A stretch of 64,000 nt of DNA from an uncultured Thiotrichaceae bacterium (GCA_964651445.1 CAZYYW010000002.1:66-64065), one strand, 5' to 3'. Shown: positions 6,379 to 11,956, counted from the first letter of the stretch. Numbers and translations are program-made. Notes: generated by a model not told the origin, from the sequence alone.

Positions 6379-6912
6379 CTAGGGTTGCGATAGTTTTTTG
6401 AGAAAATCAATGTACTTGGTGTTGTCCCACTCACGTCCACCGATTGCCTGATATTTCACTTCACCTTCAGGGTTAATTAAAAAAGTGGTTGGCAAACCTC
6501 GCGGCTTCCATACTTCGGTCACCTGTCCATCAACATCCATTAAGCTGTTTAGTTCAACATCAATCGTCGCTAAAAATTCAAATACGGTATCTTCGTCTTC
6601 TGCGGTGTTGACCATCACAATCTGAAAATCACTTTCCTGCATTGCATCGGCGAGTTTTTGTATAACCGGCATCTCCTTTCGACAAGGGCCACACCAGCTA
6701 GCCCAGAAGTGCAGAAATACCCAGTTGCCTTTAGTGCTTGCTAGTTCAAATTTTTCACCATCAAGATCATACAAATTGAAATTTTGTGCCGCCCCGATGT
6801 CATAGTGGCGAATACCGAAGGGAGGCGTCATCTCATTTGCACTAATTGCATAGCTAACACACAAGCTGCAAATGATGAGTAAGAGCTTTAAAATACCTGT
6901 CGTTTTTCTCAT
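6379..6912 (-). CDS. TlpA/ResA-family periplasmic thiol:disulfide oxidoreductase
   Basis: It has a signal peptide and the thioredoxin motif WASWCGPC. The probable ATG at 6910-6912 overlaps the upstream gene's stop as ATGA. Confidence 0.8.
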   Translation of the reverse strand: MRKTTGILKLLLIICSLCVSYAISANEMTPPFGIRHYDIGAAQNFNLYDLDGEKFELASTKGNWVFLHFWASWCGPCRKEMPVIQKLADAMQESDFQIVMVNTAEDEDTVFEFLATIDVELNSLMDVDGQVTEVWKPRGLPTTFLINPEGEVKYQAIGGREWDNTKYIDFLKKLSQP

Positions 6913-7439
6913 GGTGTATCCTCGGCACAAAAAAGTTTATCGGTGCGAATGGTAATGGTTTTCCCCTGCTGCTGGTCGCCGGTGACAAATGTTGCGCGGA
7001 TGCTGATAGCTTTATTTGTAAAAGGTAAAGCTATGTTGCCGCCTTCACGTTCACCGGGAAGATAGTCCAATGCTTCAGGCAGCAAGGTCCAACGAAATGT
7101 GGATTGTTTGCTTAAAGGTATGTTCATCTCTTGCCAGCGTTTTTTCCAGTAGTCACGGTGCTCGCGGTGTATTGGTTTATCATTAGAGAAAAATTCCCAG
7201 TTTTTCAGGTCCAGCCATATTTTATTTTGGCTGGTATTTAAAATTCTGACGGTAATAATACATTGTTGTTTAAGAATACTGCGCATTTCTGCAGGAAAAC
7301 CGCGTGCTTCGTAAAATGATCCCATTTGGTTCGGTGTTCGCGGCGTGAATTGAACTTCCAACTCAGGGGTGGTGATGGTCACAGGCTGTGCCACCTGCAT
7401 AGTCGTGACTACCAGTAGCATGGGGATGATATTAATCAT
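6909..7439 (-). CDS. hypothetical exported protein (176 aa), translationally coupled to the TlpA-like gene
   Basis: It has an N-terminal hydrophobic signal-like segment and no family I can name. Its stop overlaps the tlpA-like start by 4 nt. Confidence 0.5.
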   Translation of the reverse strand: MINIIPMLLVVTTMQVAQPVTITTPELEVQFTPRTPNQMGSFYEARGFPAEMRSILKQQCIITVRILNTSQNKIWLDLKNWEFFSNDKPIHREHRDYWKKRWQEMNIPLSKQSTFRWTLLPEALDYLPGEREGGNIALPFTNKAISIRATFVTGDQQQGKTITIRTDKLFCAEDTP

Positions 7440-7559: not shown

Positions 7560-7923
7560 GGGCGCCTCTATTAATTAGGTGTAGATTAGCATGCTCATGA
7601 CCTTACTCAACAATATTTGGCTAGTATTCCTTGATATGGCTTTTTGGCTACTGCTTGGGTTATTTGCTGCGGGTTTCATAAAATCATTTATTGCTGAAGA
7701 TACTTTGTTGCTTTTAGTTTGGTAATGGATTTCTTACTGGAATGGTTGTTGCGTACACAGCAATGGCAGATTACTGTAAATATGGGCGAAGCGCATACCA
7801 TGCTGCCAGGCATTGTTTCGTGGGTAAGCACCTTCATTTTACTGATACTGGCGATAAAACCGTTGCGCCGTAGGCTGCTTCCTCAATTGTCTTAAGGGTA
7901 CAAGCAATTATATAGAGGTGCCT
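7560..7923. repeat. 364-bp segment bounded by family C inverted repeats (GGGCGCCTCTATTAATT / AATTATATAGAGGTGCCT) that enclose a gutted permease
   Basis: The left IR is at 7560-7576 and the right IR at 7906-7923. The motif is the same as at 5042/5185. Confidence 0.5.
7591..7895 (+). pseudogene. COG0701/ArsP-like permease remnant with a large internal deletion (N-terminal 44 codons plus C-terminal 56 codons)
   Basis: 7591-7725 encodes MLMTLLNNIWLVFLDMAFWLLLGLFAAGFIKSFIAEDTLLLLVW*, which resembles the N-terminus of the permease family. 7725-7895 encodes MDFLLEWLL...VSWVSTFILLILAIKPLRRRLLPQLS* in another frame, joined through a TAATG junction. Full-length relatives are roughly 300 aa or more. 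Confidence 0.45.
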
Positions 7924-8047
7924 TTAAGCCTGCTATAAAAAAACTTGTAAATAAATTTCTTTATCATGCAATCAAATCACTGTTTTGTTCGTATTAGTGT
8001 TTAGGCACACATTTGTGTCTAAATATTAACCATAACGTGAGAAAAAT

Positions 8048-8338
8048 ATGAAAGATAAAGATCAAATACTCAAATCAACACTGGCAGGTGTACTGGCGCT
8101 AAGTGCAACCATGATGGCGAGTAGTGCTAATGCCGTACCGGAGACACCGAAACAATGGGAAAAATGTGCTGGTATAGTAAAAATTGGGATGAATGATTGT
8201 GGCTCACTGGACGGTAAACATAAATGTTCTGGTCAGGCAAAAATTGATAATGACGACAAAGAATGGGTTTATGTTCCTAAAGGCACTTGTACCAAAATTA
8301 CTGGTGGTTTTGTTGCTGCGGTTAAACCTGCGAAATAA
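8048..8338 (+). CDS. bufA: DUF2282-family secreted RiPP precursor (BufA1/GigP-like bufferin precursor)
   Basis: 96 aa with a Sec-type signal peptide (...[11 protein letters not shown]). Four Cys sit in the DUF2282 pattern: [41 protein letters not shown]. Confidence 0.8.
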
Positions 8339-8359
8339 TATAGCAACGTATTCGCGAGT

Positions 8360-8390
8360 CGGATGAAAGGGCTAGCCTTTTCATCCGTTT
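8360..8390 (+). terminator. imperfect hairpin plus TTT between the precursor and enzyme genes (possible partial terminator/attenuator)
   Basis: CGGATGAAAGG-GCTAGC-CTTTTCATCCG followed by TTT. The stem carries one bulge. Confidence 0.4.
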
Positions 8391-8415
8391 AGTCGCCATA
8401 TGAAAACCCCGTAAT

Positions 8416-9279
8416 ATGAAAAATCAGTCAGTCACCTTGCAAGAATGTAGTGTAGGTTTAGGTCTGCGTTCGGCGCACATCAAACAGATTATCCAGCAGC
8501 AACCCGACGTGTCATGGTTTGAAGTGCTATTGGATAATCATACTGCGCAAGGCGGTCTGATACCCCAACAATTGGCGGCAGTGCGAGAGTACTACCCATT
8601 AAGCTTTCATTGTGTTGACATGTCCCTTGCTGGCGTTGACGCGCTGGATAGAAATTATCTTTCTACAGTCAAACGTATGATTGTGGAATATGATCCGGTA
8701 TTGATTTCAGATCACCTGTGTTTTACACAACACGGTGAGCATCATTTTAATGATTTGCTACCTTTTCCTTATACTGAGGAATCTTTGCATCATGTCTGTC
8801 GTCGTATTGATGAAGTGCAAGATTTTTTAGGCAGAAAAATGCTAATTGAAAATGTATCAATGTATTTGCAATTCAAAAACTCTGTTTTGACTGAGGCAGA
8901 ATTTCTGTCTGAACTTGTCAGTCGCACCGGCTGTGGCATATTGCTGGATATTAATAATGCTTATGTGAATGAGTTTAATCACGGTTACGCTGCCAAAGAT
9001 TTTATCGATGCACTGCCTTTAGCATCGGTTGGTGAAGTTCATCTGGCCGGTTTTGAGGATAAAAAAGACTATCTTATCGATGCGCACAATAATAGTGTGA
9101 GCGAACCCGTGTGGGATTTATTTAAATATTATATACAGCAAGGCCACTGTGCTCCGACATTAATTGAATGGGACAACGATATTCCAAGCTTCGATGTTTT
9201 ACTTGGCGAAAGACAATCAGCAAAAAATATTATTGCTGAAAACCTAGAAGGTTTATCAACAGTCGCATCATGTCTCTGA
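8416..9279 (+). CDS. bufB: DUF692 / MNIO-family (MbnB-like) multinuclear non-heme iron oxidative enzyme
   Basis: 287 aa. GLGLRSAHI...WFEVL, ISDHLCF, LIENVS, LLDINNAYVN, EVHLAG and TLIEWD are the TIM-barrel DUF692 signature blocks. Confidence 0.85.
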   Translation: MKNQSVTLQECSVGLGLRSAHIKQIIQQQPDVSWFEVLLDNHTAQGGLIPQQLAAVREYYPLSFHCVDMSLAGVDALDRNYLSTVKRMIVEYDPVLISDHLCFTQHGEHHFNDLLPFPYTEESLHHVCRRIDEVQDFLGRKMLIENVSMYLQFKNSVLTEAEFLSELVSRTGCGILLDINNAYVNEFNHGYAAKDFIDALPLASVGEVHLAGFEDKKDYLIDAHNNSVSEPVWDLFKYYIQQGHCAPTLIEWDNDIPSFDVLLGERQSAKNIIAENLEGLSTVASCL

Positions 9280-10088
9280 CCTTACTGCAACATATCGATG
9301 TGTTTACCTCTGTTTTGGTGAAACCCGCACAGGAGACAGATTGTTTTGTTCAAACAATAGAATTGTCATCAAAAATTTCACCGCAACTTGCCATTAAAAT
9401 ATATCAGAATAATGTGAATGGCTCGAAAATAAATGCGCTAAAAGTTATTTATCCCGCTTGTGAAAAAATACTGGGCAGTGATGCGTTTTGCGCAATTGCC
9501 AAAGCGTACGTTAGTGCTGATGTAAGCGGTTCGTCCGATTTGAATAGATATGGTGCTACCTTTAGTCAGCATTTAAATTCGATTATTGAAACAGGGCGGC
9601 TGCCCGCGGAGTATAGCTACTTACCAGATCTTACCAGCCTGGAATTTTTGGTACATGCCGCCTACTACGCAGAAGATGACGCGGTATTTGACTTTAATTT
9701 ATTTGCAGACCGTATGAAAAGCCAAAAGCCATTGTATTTTCAACTCAGTAAATCCTTAGCACTGTTTTGTTTTAAATTTCCGATTCATCAAATATGGTTG
9801 CGTAACAATAATGAGTCATCGTCTGAATCAAAAAATATTCAGGCCGGTATTCATGACAGTATTCAGGCGCTAACAGAGTCGCAATACTTACTGGTGTACC
9901 GTGAAAAAAACACGCCAGTGGTTATTCAGGTTAGCCAGTGTGTATATCAATTACTCCATAATTTTATTGGTCAGCAATCATTGCAAAAGACCATCGAGTC
10001 TTGCCAGTTAAATGTAAACGAGCAGTGTAATGTGGATGAATTACTACCCGGATTAATTGCTAACGGCTGGATTACCGGTGTCCTGTAA
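9270..10088 (+). CDS. bufC: DUF2063-family partner protein (BufC/MbnC-like)
   Basis: 272 aa. Its start overlaps the bufB stop by 10 nt. The YQNNV motif near the N-terminus and its position immediately after DUF692 are typical. Confidence 0.7.
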   Translation: MSLTLLQHIDVFTSVLVKPAQETDCFVQTIELSSKISPQLAIKIYQNNVNGSKINALKVIYPACEKILGSDAFCAIAKAYVSADVSGSSDLNRYGATFSQHLNSIIETGRLPAEYSYLPDLTSLEFLVHAAYYAEDDAVFDFNLFADRMKSQKPLYFQLSKSLALFCFKFPIHQIWLRNNNESSSESKNIQAGIHDSIQALTESQYLLVYREKNTPVVIQVSQCVYQLLHNFIGQQSLQKTIESCQLNVNEQCNVDELLPGLIANGWITGVL

Positions 10089-10089
10089 T

Positions 10090-10614
10090 ATGAATGATTC
10101 AGAAGTATTTGATAAGCATGTGCTGCACAAGCTTTTTCGTTATGCCTATTCCCTCTGTGTAAATGAGGATGATGCTTATGATTTGTTGCATTATGCGCTA
10201 GAGAAATATTTACACAATCAGTCTAGCAGTAAGCAAGGTGGTGCAGTAGCGTATGTACGTACAATTATACGTCATCGATTTATTGATGAATATCGAAAGA
10301 AAAAACGCTTTCCTGAAGAAGTTTTTGACGAGGAAAGTGCTGTTGCTATAGACGTGTCCTCGCTCGAAGACATTGTATTGGCGCAAGTTGAACTTGAAGC
10401 AGTGTGGCAAAAAATTGATCCGTTCGAACGAGAAATTTTATATTATTGGACAATAGAGGGAATGACGGCGCAAGAGATTTCGCAGCAGATTGGCGTGCCA
10501 AGAGGCACTGTATTGTCTAGGATTTATCGATTAAGGAAAAAAATACAATTGGCGAACAACGATGTTGTTTCAAAAAACCTGAACGATAATATATCGAGAG
10601 GTAATAAGAAATGA
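10090..10614 (+). CDS. ECF-type RNA polymerase sigma-70 family factor
   Basis: About 174 aa from the ATG at 10090. Region 2 (AYDLLHYALEKYL...IIRHRFIDEYRK) and region 4 HTH (MTAQEISQQIGVPRGTVLSRIYRLRKKI) are present. Confidence 0.8.
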   Translation: MNDSEVFDKHVLHKLFRYAYSLCVNEDDAYDLLHYALEKYLHNQSSSKQGGAVAYVRTIIRHRFIDEYRKKKRFPEEVFDEESAVAIDVSSLEDIVLAQVELEAVWQKIDPFEREILYYWTIEGMTAQEISQQIGVPRGTVLSRIYRLRKKIQLANNDVVSKNLNDNISRGNKK

Positions 10615-11219
10615 GTAAGCCATTGAAGAATTCTGTACGAGAGCATCTCGAATCAAAATCACTCACTGCTATTCAATTACAGAAACTTGAGTCGCTGGTA
10701 GACAATGTTGAGCAGGAAAGCGCACCGCGGAATTTTAAATACGCTTTGCTTGTTTCTACGGTGCTTGCAGTTTTTGTGTTGGCATTGTTCGTTTTACCTC
10801 AAGTCACGGAACAGCCTGATATGCGCGAAAAGATTGCATTGGAGGTGGCGAGTCATCATCTCAAACTAAAACCATTAGAGATTGAAACCAGTAGCATAAA
10901 GAGCATTCGTGATTATTTTACAAGGCTGGACTTCCTGCCGATGAATAGCCAATTGATTAGTGATGCAGGGCTTGAATTAGTAGGAGGGCGTTATTGTTCT
11001 TTGCAGGGTATAACCGCCGCTCAACTGAGAGTGAAAAAACCAGGCTCGGATGTAGTGCAAATGTTGTATCAAGTAGAATATCGAAAAGATGTATTCGATA
11101 AAATGCCGTTAATAGAAGAGGGTGAATTACCGGTCGAAGTTTATGTCAAAGGTATCAAGGTGAAAATCTGGGTAGAAAAAGGATTGTTATTTGTACTTAG
11201 TGATGTGCCGGAAGCCTAA
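10611..11219 (+). CDS. putative anti-sigma factor (single-pass membrane protein)
   Basis: 202 aa with an ATGA overlap to the sigma gene. It has one TM (YALLVSTVLAVFVLALFVLPQV) about 45 aa from the N-terminus and a periplasmic C-domain. No ZAS motif was seen. Confidence 0.5.
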   Translation: MSKPLKNSVREHLESKSLTAIQLQKLESLVDNVEQESAPRNFKYALLVSTVLAVFVLALFVLPQVTEQPDMREKIALEVASHHLKLKPLEIETSSIKSIRDYFTRLDFLPMNSQLISDAGLELVGGRYCSLQGITAAQLRVKKPGSDVVQMLYQVEYRKDVFDKMPLIEEGELPVEVYVKGIKVKIWVEKGLLFVLSDVPEA

Positions 11220-11464: not shown

Positions 11465-11956
11465 ATGAAAAGTTTATTTAAGACGTTGCTAATGGCTGTT
11501 TTTTTGGCGACAAGCTTTACCGGTTCGGCAGTATTGGCAGATGACGATGACATGATAAAAGTGGTTTATCATGCAGATTTTTCTGACCCAAGAAGGTTTA
11601 GCGCGATGTTAACCAGTATCAATAATATGATGTTGTATTATCAGAATGAGATGGTGGATTACGATGTGCGCATTGTTTTTGTCGCCCATGGCATCCGCTT
11701 TCTAACGGATGAAAAGCTAAAAAATACACCTTTTGCAGAAGACAAAGAAATGGCAGAGCGGCGTGAAAGCAATACTGGCAGACTTTCGAGCCTGGCTTCT
11801 TTGTATGATGTCAAACTAGAGTTGTGCGATATTACTCGTACAGGTATTAGTCTGGATAAAGCCAAAGTAATGGATGCTGTGGAATTGGTGCCTTCAGGCG
11901 TGGTAAGAATCGCAGAGCTTCAGTCACAAGGTTTTTCGTATATTAAAATTGAGTAA
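11465..11956 (+). CDS. secreted DsrE/DsrF-like (COG1416-type) protein
   Basis: 163 aa with a signal peptide. The pattern IKVVYH...MLTSINNMMLYY...RIVFVAHGIRFL...LELCDITR...VPSGVVRIAELQSQGFSYIK is typical of the DsrE-related family. Confidence 0.5.
   Translation: MKSLFKTLLMAVFLATSFTGSAVLADDDDMIKVVYHADFSDPRRFSAMLTSINNMMLYYQNEMVDYDVRIVFVAHGIRFLTDEKLKNTPFAEDKEMAERRESNTGRLSSLASLYDVKLELCDITRTGISLDKAKVMDAVELVPSGVVRIAELQSQGFSYIKIE

What the first reader, a model, noticed from the sequence alone, without database searches (positions are those of the whole stretch)
8048..11219. Bufferin/gig-type periplasmic RiPP operon with built-in ECF sigma/anti-sigma pair and no DoxX gene
Five co-directional, tightly packed genes make up the operon.
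- A 96-aa precursor with a Sec signal peptide and four Cys in the DUF2282 spacing (EKCAG, NDCGS, HKCSG, GTCTK...GG).
- A DUF692/MNIO (MbnB-like) enzyme.
- A DUF2063 partner whose start overlaps the enzyme gene by 10 nt.
- An ECF sigma factor.
- A single-pass membrane protein joined to the sigma gene by an ATGA overlap (anti-sigma candidate).

This is the gene content of the only recently characterised bufferin family, in which Cys residues of a secreted small protein are oxidised by an MNIO enzyme and the product is involved in copper stress. It also matches the Cupriavidus gig cluster, which is controlled by an ECF sigma. Two things differ here. The DoxX-type membrane gene (bufD/gigT) usually found in these operons is absent. 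The sigma/anti-sigma pair sits at the 3' end of the same operon, as I recall for the Neisseria sigmaE operon. The product chemistry, metal specificity and inducing signal are unknown for this organism.
Basis: partly seen in the sequence, partly recalled or inferred. Interest (0 to 1): 0.8.

Follow-up and report, generated by a model that had tools for sequence, protein, structure and literature searches.

The report
Self-regulated copper-peptide (bufferin) operon
This is an intact operon for a bufferin, a known kind of secreted, enzyme-modified copper-binding peptide; its gene layout is common among relatives, and the only new part is its built-in membrane regulator, which belongs to a large protein family nobody has described.

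Summary
Five co-directional genes at 8048-11219 encode:
- a DUF2282/BufA1 precursor with a signal peptide and 4 Cys;
- an MNIO enzyme that passes NCBI's BufB equivalog cutoff;
- a DUF2063 partner;
- an ECF sigma factor;
- a single-pass membrane protein whose start overlaps the sigma stop (ATGA).

DoxX accompanies only 40% of MNIO loci in the published survey, is dispensable in Caulobacter, and is present in about 7 of the 80 closest BufB loci. A 3'-terminal sigma/anti-sigma pair is the known Neisseria sigmaE layout. The exact five-gene order recurs in 43 of those 80 loci.

What is new is the fifth protein.
- It is neither NrsF nor a ZAS protein.
- It has no Pfam, NCBIfam or PDB match.
- It defines a family of about 1,200 clusters at 50% identity.
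- It is almost always translationally coupled to the sigma gene.
- Its periplasmic domain models at pLDDT 96.5 and has no significant solved structural relative.
- It shows only a faint relationship to DUF3379.

A conserved ECF-type promoter (TGCAATCAAA-N12-TCGT; window 7967-7992) precedes bufA in 41 of 42 five-gene loci (39 within 220 nt, two about 300 nt upstream). This implies autoregulation.

Verdict: a known system carrying an undescribed regulatory module. Interest is moderate.

The parts
7967..7994 (+). ECF-type promoter. The -35-like element is TGCAATCAAA (7967-7976). The -10-like element is TCGTAT (7989-7994). It lies about 55 nt upstream of the bufA start.
   Evidence: - The dyad GCAAT-N16-TCGT occurs in 32 of 42 five-gene loci, against at most 4 in shuffles.
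- The motif lies about 50-160 nt (mostly 75-100 nt) upstream of bufA in 39 of 42 loci; two more have it about 300 nt upstream.
- It occurs in only 5 of 27 three-gene loci, and four of those five are contigs cut at or just after bufC or sigma.
- It is retained in front of stand-alone sigma-fifth pairs.
- It matches once in the whole window, with 0.09 expected by chance.
8048..8338 (+). bufA1: the bufferin precursor (96 aa). It has a Sec signal peptide (residues 1-29, ...SANA|VPE) and a 67-aa core with four Cys.
   Evidence: - PF10048 DUF2282, E=3e-22, 78.7 bits.
- All 44 BufA sequences from five-gene loci have exactly 4 Cys and a near-identical core.
8361..8386 (+). Stem-loop in the 77-nt bufA-bufB spacer: a 12-bp stem with no T-run after it. 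It may be a partial attenuator or an mRNA-stabilising hairpin that favours the precursor over the enzymes.
   Evidence: - RNA fold -26.3 kcal/mol, z = -3.5, with 0 of 200 shuffles as stable.
- It is unique in the window.
- Most relatives have fewer than 30 nt between bufA and bufB, so this feature is specific to this lineage.
8416..9279 (+). bufB1: the MNIO (DUF692) bufferin maturase (287 aa).
   Evidence: - PF05114, E=1.3e-101.
- NCBIfam NF050167 MNIO_BufB equivalog, 345.8 bits against a cutoff of 310.
9270..10088 (+). bufC1: the DUF2063 / PME-type-1 partner protein (272 aa). Its start overlaps bufB by 10 nt.
   Evidence: - PF09836, 56.5 bits against a cutoff of 27.2.
- Weak sub-cutoff HvfC match.
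- No PDB sequence match at E<=0.01.
10090..10614 (+). ECF (group IV) sigma factor, 174 aa from the ATG at 10090.
   Evidence: - Sigma70_r2 and r4_2 are present.
- TIGR02937 scores 65 bits against a cutoff of 42.9. No specific NCBIfam equivalog is reached.
- Gene callers place the start at the position equal to window 10090.
- The closest solved relatives are M. tuberculosis SigH and SigE, E about 1e-9.
10611..11219 (+). Anti-sigma candidate of an undescribed family (202 aa). It has a short cytoplasmic N-terminus with two helices (about residues 5-31), a TM helix at about 43-64, and a conserved periplasmic alpha/beta domain (about 70-200). H83 is invariant and C129 is nearly invariant.
   Evidence: - No Pfam, NCBIfam or PDB sequence hit.
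- Family size: at least 851 clusters at 90% identity and 1,199 at 50% identity.
- Its start overlaps the sigma stop in 41 of 45 loci.
- AF2 models: full length pLDDT 76; the domain alone pLDDT 96.5.
- Foldseek against the PDB gives nothing at E<0.01.
- There is a sub-threshold DUF3379 signal.

Best explanation
**What it is.** A self-contained, autoregulated Buf1-type bufferin (gig-like, 'captophorin') operon: P(ECF)-bufA1-bufB1-bufC1-sigma-antisigma.

**Shown here**
- Family membership of the first four proteins.
- Tight coupling of the genes.
- Recurrence of the same five-gene module in many Gamma-, Beta- and Alphaproteobacterial genomes.
- A conserved ECF-type promoter in front of bufA that travels with the sigma gene.
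- Near-obligate pairing of the fifth gene with the sigma gene.

**Inferred from published work on the family**
- BufB (an MNIO enzyme) and BufC act in the cytoplasm. They convert the two central Cys of BufA (NDCGS and HKCSG) into 5-thiooxazoles.
- The outer Cys pair forms a disulfide.
- The Sec signal peptide exports the small protein to the periplasm, where it chelates excess copper.

**Inferred here**
- The fifth protein is the cognate anti-sigma factor.
  - Its approximately 40-residue cytoplasmic N-terminus holds the sigma at the membrane. This is the geometry of CnrY and AabA.
  - Its conserved periplasmic domain receives the inducing signal, most likely copper or copper-caused envelope damage.
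- On signal, the sigma is released and transcribes the whole operon from the TGCAATCAAA...TCGT promoter. That gives positive feedback on the sigma, negative feedback through the anti-sigma, and a burst of precursor.
- The hairpin after bufA may further raise the precursor-to-enzyme ratio in this lineage.
- DoxX is simply not part of this version of the module.
For: **Core families**
- The four core proteins pass their family thresholds.

**Layout recurrence**
- 43 of the 80 closest BufB loci in species-representative genomes have the same five-gene row.
- These include the cultured Halochromatium glycolicum DSM 11080 (L042), Ca. Thiodiazotropha (L066), Betaproteobacteria MAGs (L017, L020) and Hyphomicrobiales (L072, L079).

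**Sampling from the fifth-protein side (metagenomes)**
- 62 of 67 loci with usable upstream DNA have the sigma directly upstream.
- 17 of 19 loci with at least 2.9 kb upstream have full bufABC.

**Promoter**
- The motif is present in 39-41 of 42 five-gene loci, against 5 of 27 three-gene loci.
- It is retained in the deletion derivatives L118, L120 and L149, which keep only the sigma and the fifth gene.

**Coupling and topology**
- The sigma stop and fifth-gene start overlap as ATGA, GTGA or TTGA in 41 of 45 loci.
- The topology and the short N-terminus with a TM helix at 43-64 mirror AabA. AabA has its TM helix at 42-64, is CnrY-like, and belongs to a copper-responsive system (PMC12153292).

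**Remote DUF3379 signal**
- DUF3379 proteins carry a ZAS motif and are encoded next to an ECF sigma in other buf loci.
- 23 of 143 diverse family members hit PF11859 at E<=1 (best 8e-5), against at most 5 for any other family.
- hhalign gives E=2.4e-4 over 181 columns.

**Metal context**
- A remnant of a Cu/Zn efflux permease lies just upstream.
- CopA-like and CusAB genes lie next to the operon in L001.

**Chemistry and function**
- PMC11626156, PMC12452194 and PMC13097082.
Against: - No experiment exists for this organism or for this anti-sigma family.
- The fifth protein has no recognisable anti-sigma domain and no ZAS motif. Its N-terminal helices are modelled with low confidence (pLDDT 50-58).
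- The DUF3379 relationship is sub-threshold.
  - The window protein itself gives no DUF3379 hit.
  - The shallow-profile comparison was not significant (E=0.12).
  - Some HMM alignments cover mainly the TM region.
- The inducing signal is not known. The related Neisseria and Haemophilus sigma systems respond to oxidative or HOCl stress rather than demonstrably to copper.
- No sigma-70-type or intrinsic terminator signals delimit the operon clearly. It is therefore unknown whether the downstream DsrE-like gene is co-transcribed.
Confidence: 0.72

Rival explanations
1. The module is regulated as described, but the signal is oxidative, hypochlorite or thiol stress in the envelope rather than copper itself. 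This is what is reported for the Neisseria sigmaE and Haemophilus RpoE2 systems that control the homologous operons.
For: - Neisseria sigmaE and H. influenzae RpoE2 control msrAB together with the doxX/DUF2282/DUF692/DUF2063 operon. RpoE2 is induced by HOCl and H2O2.
- The sigma here is closest, among solved structures, to the SigH, SigE and SigR-type redox-stress sigmas.
- A TlpA/ResA-like thiol-disulfide oxidoreductase is encoded divergently upstream.
- The periplasmic domain has a single nearly invariant Cys and an invariant His. These could be redox-sensitive.
Against: - Those systems use cytoplasmic ZAS anti-sigmas whose Cys residues do the sensing. This protein lacks the ZAS motif and senses on the periplasmic side.
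- The characterised function of Buf1 is copper chelation, and Caulobacter buf operons are copper-induced (PMC11626156).
- Copper genes flank the operon in L001, and a Cu/Zn efflux remnant flanks it in the window.
- No msrAB gene or second promoter copy was found in the window.
Confidence: 0.25
2. The fifth protein is not an anti-sigma factor. It is instead a periplasm-facing accessory of the bufferin itself, such as a membrane-anchored receptor, chaperone or redox partner that functionally replaces DoxX. On this view the sigma would be controlled in some other way.
For: - It has no detectable anti-sigma domain and no Pfam, NCBIfam or PDB match.
- The periplasmic domain is much better conserved than the N-terminus.
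- DoxX is nearly absent from loci that have this gene.
Against: - It is positioned after the sigma, not after bufC, with start-stop overlap in 41 of 45 loci.
- It stays paired with the sigma and the promoter when bufABC is deleted (L118, L120, L149).
- In L047 it moves together with the sigma to the other strand.
- An ECF sigma with no adjacent anti-sigma would be atypical.
- Its N-terminal geometry matches proven short anti-sigmas.
- There is a weak DUF3379/ZAS-region alignment.
Confidence: 0.1
3. One reading: this is an exceptional bufferin operon, remarkable because DoxX was lost and the sigma/anti-sigma pair was recruited into the operon.
For: - The founding examples, the Caulobacter buf1ABCD and Cupriavidus gig operons, do include DoxX (PMC11626156).
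- Published text calls DoxX part of the 'core'.
Against: - DoxX co-occurs with only 40% of MNIO loci, and ECF sigma domains with 23%.
- DoxX is dispensable.
- 43 of the 80 closest loci share this exact layout, and plain bufABC loci also lack DoxX.
- Neisseria already shows the 3'-terminal sigma pair.
Confidence: 0.03

Closest known systems
Caulobacter vibrioides buf1 operon (bufA1B1C1D1, CCNA_03363-03366) with SigF/NrsF; equivalent to the Cupriavidus and Legionella gig operons
   Same: - A DUF2282 precursor with a Sec signal peptide and four Cys, an MNIO BufB and a DUF2063 BufC, in the same order.
- Control by an ECF sigma factor.
- Expected 5-thiooxazole chemistry and periplasmic copper chelation.
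   Different: - There is no bufD/DoxX here.
- The sigma and its partner are inside the operon at the 3' end rather than nearby.
- The partner is a single-pass protein with a folded periplasmic domain, not the multi-pass NrsF (PF06532 was not hit).
Neisseria meningitidis / gonorrhoeae sigmaE operon (NMB2140-2145; NGO1948-1943)
   Same: - DUF2282-DUF692-DUF2063-ECF sigma-anti-sigma in one autoregulated polycistronic operon.
- The sigma pair is at the 3' end.
- The -10-like element (CGTCT) is similar.
   Different: - Neisseria has doxX as the first gene.
- Its anti-sigma MseR is a small cytoplasmic ZAS protein that senses through Cys residues.
- Here the partner is membrane-anchored, lacks the HxxxCxxC motif, and has a 130-aa periplasmic domain.
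- The -35 element differs from the one published for Neisseria.
Short single-pass (class II, CnrY-like) anti-sigma factors: Cupriavidus CnrY and Acinetobacter AabA
   Same: - A cytoplasmic N-terminus of about 40 residues followed by one TM helix. AabA's TM helix is at residues 42-64; here it is at about 43-64.
- The gene overlaps the 3' end of an autoregulated ECF sigma gene.
- Both are metal-responsive systems: Co/Ni for CnrYXH and copper for SigAb.
   Different: - No sequence similarity was detected.
- CnrY and AabA have only a short periplasmic tail and need a separate periplasmic partner (CnrX, AabB).
- Here a large conserved periplasmic domain is fused to the anti-sigma candidate, and no third gene is present.
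Pfam DUF3379 (PF11859) proteins next to PRK12517-type ECF sigmas
   Same: - Overall architecture: an N-terminal cytoplasmic segment, one TM helix and a periplasmic domain of about 120 aa.
- They are also found beside bufABC operons (L026, L058, L062, L076).
- There are weak but consistent profile similarities. These include alignment of the GGRYCSxQG motif with YAGxCxI, and of the juxtamembrane IAxEVxxNHL helix.
   Different: - DUF3379 proteins carry a ZAS-like HxxxCxxC motif. They are encoded divergently with a different ECF sigma subgroup.
- The window protein itself gives no DUF3379 hit.
- The relationship is sub-threshold (best single-sequence E=8e-5; hhalign probability 44%).
- DUF3379 is itself uncharacterised.

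Membership tests
Buf1-type bufferin biosynthetic gene cluster | Precursor of the DUF2282 family with a Sec signal peptide and four conserved Cys | tested here: met
   - PF10048, E=3e-22.
- AxA cleavage site and four Cys are read directly from the sequence.
- The four Cys are conserved in 44 of 44 relatives.
Buf1-type bufferin biosynthetic gene cluster | MNIO (DUF692) maturase of the BufB type, encoded next to the precursor | tested here: met
   - NF050167 MNIO_BufB, 345.8 bits against a cutoff of 310.
- PF05114, E=1e-101.
Buf1-type bufferin biosynthetic gene cluster | DUF2063 / PME-type-1 partner encoded directly after the MNIO gene | tested here: met
   - PF09836, 56.5 bits against a cutoff of 27.2.
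- The gene overlaps bufB by 10 nt.
Buf1-type bufferin biosynthetic gene cluster | DoxX-type membrane protein (BufD). It is frequent but not obligatory: 40% co-occurrence, and dispensable in Caulobacter. | tested here: not met
   - No DoxX-like ORF in the operon or in the 64-kb window.
- The rest of the genome could not be searched.
- Literature.
Buf1-type bufferin biosynthetic gene cluster | Product carries two 5-thiooxazoles and one disulfide (-10 Da) and binds copper | not testable with these tools
   Known only from Caulobacter Buf1 (PMC11626156). Testing it here needs expression and mass spectrometry.
ECF (group IV) sigma factor | Sigma-70 regions 2 and 4 only, about 170-200 aa | tested here: met
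   - PF04542 and PF08281 are present.
- TIGR02937 scores 65 bits against a cutoff of 42.9.
- No specific ECF subgroup model reaches its cutoff.
ECF (group IV) sigma factor | Autoregulation from a conserved -35/-10 promoter upstream of its own operon | tested here: met
   - A conserved TGCAATCAAA-N12/13-TTCGTCT motif co-occurs with the sigma gene.
- This is comparative evidence only; no transcription was measured.
NrsF-type anti-sigma factor (PF06532) | Multi-pass membrane protein matching PF06532 | tested here: not met
   No PF06532 hit at E<=10, and only a single TM helix.
ZAS-type anti-sigma factor (RsrA, MseR, HrsE) | HxxxCxxC zinc-binding motif in an N-terminal anti-sigma domain | tested here: not met
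   - There is no Cys in residues 1-128. The only Cys (C129) is periplasmic.
- No zf-HC2 hit.
Pfam DUF3379 | Match to PF11859 above the gathering score (33.2 bits) | tested here: not met
   - The window protein gives no hit.
- 23 of 143 relatives give sub-threshold hits, best E=8e-5.
- hhalign gives E=2.4e-4, probability 44%.
- This suggests a distant relationship, not membership.
Class II (CnrY/AabA-like) anti-sigma factor | Short cytoplasmic peptide that spans sigma regions 2 and 4, followed by one TM helix | tested here: inconclusive
   - The length and the TM position match (against PMC12153292).
- Binding to the sigma could not be modelled, because no multimer prediction was available.

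The most novel reading that the evidence does not exclude
The fifth protein founds a new class of anti-sigma factor. Its periplasmic domain has a confidently predicted fold with no solved relative, an invariant His and a nearly invariant Cys. On this reading the domain directly senses periplasmic copper, or the copper-loading state of the bufferin the operon produces. The five genes would then form a portable, closed-loop 'sense, buffer, reset' copper module. That module has spread across Gamma-, Beta- and Alphaproteobacteria, mostly uncultured marine and sulfur-oxidising lineages.
Probability: 0.25. Interest if true: 0.6.

Novelty: new variant of a known kind. Interest (0 to 1): 0.4.

Why it matters
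- Bufferins are the largest family of MNIO-modified RiPPs and a recently recognised, widespread copper-defence mechanism. How cells decide when to make them is known only for the SigF/NrsF and ZAS-type systems.
- The published survey found ECF sigma genes at 23% of MNIO loci but NrsF at only 12%. That left a large share of the regulators unnamed.
- This window, with its relatives, identifies one such missing partner.
  - It is a family of about 1,200 clusters of single-pass membrane proteins with no annotation.
  - They are strictly coupled to an ECF sigma and to Buf1 operons.
  - The work also identifies the promoter the sigma probably uses.
- This gives a directly testable sensor candidate. 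It also gives a cultured organism in which to test it, Halochromatium glycolicum DSM 11080.
- The biosynthetic part adds nothing new beyond one more member.

Tried and rejected
1. **Sequence searches of the fifth protein.** Pfam and NCBIfam at E<=10, and a PDB profile search, gave nothing meaningful.
2. **Foldseek of the full-length model and of the high-confidence domain model against the PDB.** There was no hit at E<0.01. The weak top hits (RseB/MucB, APH(3') and kinase N-lobes, TM1622) have TM<=0.40 and were not taken as homology.
3. **First hhalign of the shallow 21-sequence profile against DUF3379.** It was not significant (E=0.12). Only the deeper 143-sequence profile gave a weak signal. 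HMM alignments of DUF3379 to family members mostly cover the TM region, so they were not counted as proof.
4. **Exhaustive profile search to see remote relatives.** The top 150 hits were all in-family, so the tail could not be inspected.
5. **Metagenome scan with the 143-sequence alignment.** It was repeated with the 21-sequence alignment.
6. **DoxX downstream of bufC in plain bufABC loci.** None was found. The downstream genes are unrelated.
7. **Conserved flanking genes that might belong to the module.** None is shared by more than about 7 loci, so the module is five genes.
8. **Sigma-70 promoter and terminator scan.** It was uninformative, with fewer hits than in shuffles.
9. **The Microbulbifer RiPP paper.** It proved irrelevant, because it concerns no DUF2282 or sigma content.
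10. **A fused sigma-linker-anti-sigma construct for AF2.** It was considered but not submitted.

Full report
**1. The observation**

- bufA is at 8048-8338, bufB at 8416-9279 and bufC at 9270-10088. bufB and bufC overlap by 10 nt.
- An ECF sigma gene ends at 10614.
- A 202-aa ORF at 10611-11219 has a start that overlaps the sigma stop as ATGA.
- The sigma gene most likely starts at the ATG at 10090, 1 nt after the bufC stop. Gene callers place it there on an identical public contig.

Profile searches confirm the families.
- Precursor: DUF2282/BufA1, E=3e-22.
- Enzyme: MbnB_TglH_ChrH, E=1e-101, and NCBI's BufB equivalog model at 345.8 bits against a cutoff of 310.
- Partner: DUF2063, 56.5 bits against 27.2.
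- Sigma: regions 2 and 4, and TIGR02937 at 65 bits against 42.9.
- Fifth protein: nothing in Pfam or NCBIfam even at E<=10, and nothing in PDB sequences.

No DoxX-like ORF exists in the operon or anywhere in the 64-kb window.

**2. How common the layout is**

A scan of one genome per species with a BufB alignment returned the 80 closest loci, at 44-74% identity. I classified them with HMMs built from the window clade.
- 43 loci carry the same row: BufA-BufB-BufC-sigma-fifth protein.
- One more locus is cut inside the sigma gene. One has the sigma-fifth pair nearby on the other strand.
- Ten of the remaining loci end right after bufB or bufC, so they cannot be scored.
- Carriers include uncultured Thiotrichaceae (the nearest relatives of the window), Arenicellales, Methylococcales, Chromatiales, Ectothiorhodospiraceae, Cellvibrionales and Woeseiaceae. 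They also include Ca. Thiodiazotropha, the cultured Halochromatium glycolicum DSM 11080, Betaproteobacteria MAGs and Hyphomicrobiales.
- DoxX-like genes appear in only about 7 of the 80 loci. Loci without the sigma pair are plain bufABC followed by unrelated genes.
- Flanking genes are not conserved. The five genes are therefore a self-contained module that sits in different contexts. In one Thiotrichales MAG it lies next to a CopA-like ATPase and CusAB.

**3. What the literature already says**
- Bufferins were defined in 2024. BufB and BufC convert the two central Cys of BufA1 to 5-thiooxazoles (-4 Da each) and the outer Cys form a disulfide, for -10 Da in total. The Sec-exported product chelates copper. 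DoxX is needed neither for the modification nor for the copper phenotype (PMC11626156).
- The 2025 landscape paper counts, among 13,976 MNIO loci: DUF2063 71%, DoxX 40%, DUF2282 39%, ECF sigma 23% and NrsF 12%. It states that sigma and NrsF anti-sigma genes occur in Buf1 clusters (PMC12452194). It describes no family resembling the fifth protein.
- The Neisseria sigmaE operon is doxX-DUF2282-DUF692-DUF2063-rpoE-mseR. It is autoregulated, with a small cytoplasmic ZAS anti-sigma (PMC2893595). Haemophilus RpoE2/HrsE is similar (PMC7907618).
Lack of DoxX is common, and a 3'-terminal sigma pair is documented.

**4. The promoter**

Upstream regions of bufA from five-gene loci share a striking motif, TGCAATCAAA-N12/13-TTCGTCT.
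- The dyad GCAAT-N16-TCGT is in 32 of 42 loci, against at most 4 in shuffles.
- The motif lies about 50-160 nt (mostly 75-100 nt) upstream of bufA in 39 of 42 loci. Two more have it about 300 nt upstream.
- Among three-gene loci only 5 of 27 have it. Four of those five are contigs truncated at or just after bufC or sigma.
- In the window it is at 7967-7992 and occurs nowhere else in the 64 kb, with 0.09 expected by chance.
- Three metagenomic loci have lost bufABC but keep the sigma and the fifth gene. All three still carry the motif, and L118 retains a bufB fragment.
- The motif thus travels with the sigma gene. That is what autoregulation predicts. No transcription was measured.

**5. The fifth protein**

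Size and conservation of the family:
- At least 851 clusters at 90% identity and 1,199 at 50% identity, 348 of them at E<=1e-30. Nearly all are about 200 aa and all are unnamed.
- The periplasmic part is far better conserved than the N-terminus. H83, G125 and G181 are invariant. N82, R127, Y128, C129, Q138, R140, W187 and E189 are nearly so.

Predicted structure:
- AF2 predicts two short low-confidence N-terminal helices, a TM helix at 43-64 and an alpha/beta domain.
- Modelled alone with a 110-sequence alignment, the domain reaches pLDDT 96.5 and pTM 0.90.
- Foldseek finds no PDB match at E<0.01. The best TM-score is 0.40, and the weak hits are to RseB/MucB and kinase N-lobes.

Linkage to the sigma gene:
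- Its start overlaps the sigma stop in 41 of 45 loci.
- Sampling from the fifth-protein side in metagenomes, 62 of 67 loci with usable upstream DNA have the sigma directly upstream. Of 19 loci with at least 2.9 kb upstream, 17 have full bufABC.

Possible relationship to DUF3379:
- Some bufABC loci that lack the pair have instead a divergent ECF sigma plus a DUF3379 protein. That protein has a ZAS motif, one TM helix and a periplasmic domain.
- The fifth family shows a faint but specific relationship to it. DUF3379 is the most frequently matched Pfam family among 143 diverse members: 23 members, best E=8e-5, with the next family at 5 members.
- A deep profile aligns over 181 columns at E=2.4e-4, probability 44%.
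- This is a lead, not membership. The window protein itself gives no hit, and the shallow comparison failed.

Functional precedent:
- Acinetobacter AabA has a TM helix at 42-64 and a CnrY-like cytoplasmic peptide. It belongs to a copper-responsive system and shows that such a short N-terminus can be a working anti-sigma (PMC12153292).

**6. Mechanism proposed**
- Shown: family memberships, gene coupling, module recurrence, and linkage between the promoter and the sigma gene.
- Inferred from the family: cytoplasmic thiooxazole formation on the NDCGS and HKCSG cysteines, Sec export, and periplasmic copper chelation.
- Inferred here:
  - The fifth protein sequesters the sigma at the membrane.
  - A periplasmic signal, most probably copper, releases the sigma.
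  - The sigma then transcribes the whole operon from the motif at 7967-7994.
  - A strong, lineage-specific hairpin between bufA and bufB (8361-8386; -26 kcal/mol, z -3.5) may bias expression toward the precursor.
- The main open question is the signal. An oxidative or hypochlorite signal, as in Neisseria and Haemophilus, is a serious alternative.

**7. Verdict**
- The biosynthetic core is one more member of a well-described family.
- The regulatory partner is an undescribed, large family with a confidently predicted but structurally unmatched sensor domain. That is why I rate the locus as a new variant of a known kind, with moderate interest (0.4).

Noticed in passing
window 7591-7895 (+): Two small ORFs (44 and 56 aa) match the N-terminal positions 2-31 and the C-terminal positions 307-350 of the 351-aa SO_0444-family Cu/Zn efflux transporter model (NF033936; E=1.4e-5 and 5e-3). 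This looks like an internally deleted remnant of a metal efflux permease directly upstream of the buf promoter.
   Followed up: partly
window 8361-8386 (+): A perfect 12-bp stem-loop lies in an unusually long (77-nt) bufA-bufB spacer. Most relatives have fewer than 30 nt there. It is unique in the window. It may be an attenuator or stabiliser that sets the precursor-to-enzyme ratio.
   Followed up: partly
window 8003-8020 (+): An imperfect palindrome, AGGCACACATTTGTGTCT, lies between the -10 element and the bufA start. A GGCAC-like block recurs at the same distance downstream of the -10 in many related loci (alignment). It could mark the transcription start region or a second regulatory site.
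   Followed up: no
window 6379-7439 (-): A gene pair is transcribed divergently from the buf operon. It consists of an unannotated 176-aa protein (6909-7439, no Pfam or NCBIfam hit) that overlaps a TlpA/ResA-like periplasmic thiol-disulfide oxidoreductase (6379-6930). The pair is not conserved next to the module in other loci.
   Followed up: partly
window 11465-11956 (+): A DsrE-like protein with a signal peptide is encoded 245 nt downstream of the fifth gene on the same strand. No clear terminator lies between them, so co-transcription is open. It is not conserved in related loci.
   Followed up: no
L156 3587-4264, L160 5848-6519, L163 (metagenome contigs): These are decayed copies of the module. 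bufA is intact, but an internal deletion fuses the first approximately 70 residues of BufB in frame to the periplasmic domain of the fifth protein. This removes bufC, the sigma and the anti-sigma N-terminus. An ArsR-like regulator gene lies just upstream.
   Followed up: partly
L118, L120 5525-6630, L149 5525-6584: Stand-alone sigma-fifth pairs without bufABC still carry the TGCAATCAAA...TTCGTC motif upstream. L118 retains a fragment encoding the BufB '...PWFEILA' motif. These are deletion derivatives that kept the regulatory loop.
   Followed up: yes
L015 10759-11595 and two other loci: A formylglycine-generating-enzyme-like gene (FGE-sulfatase, PF03781, E=1.6e-55) starts 4 nt after the fifth gene in three loci. 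FGE enzymes are copper enzymes, and Buf1-FGE fusions are mentioned in PMC12452194.
   Followed up: no
L026, L058, L062, L076: bufABC operons without the 3' pair have instead an upstream ECF sigma (PRK12517 subfamily) plus a DUF3379 protein with a ZAS-like HxxxCxxC motif. The pair is divergent from the operon in L026, L058 and L076, and on the same strand in L062. This is a fourth type of sigma/anti-sigma pairing with bufferin operons. I did not see it mentioned in the papers read.
   Followed up: partly
L021 6197-8540 (-), L141, L145, L150: Some genomes carry a second, divergent MNIO gene with a DoxX-like gene on the opposite strand about 3 kb downstream of the five-gene module. A DoxX-containing cluster and the DoxX-less module can therefore coexist.
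   Followed up: no
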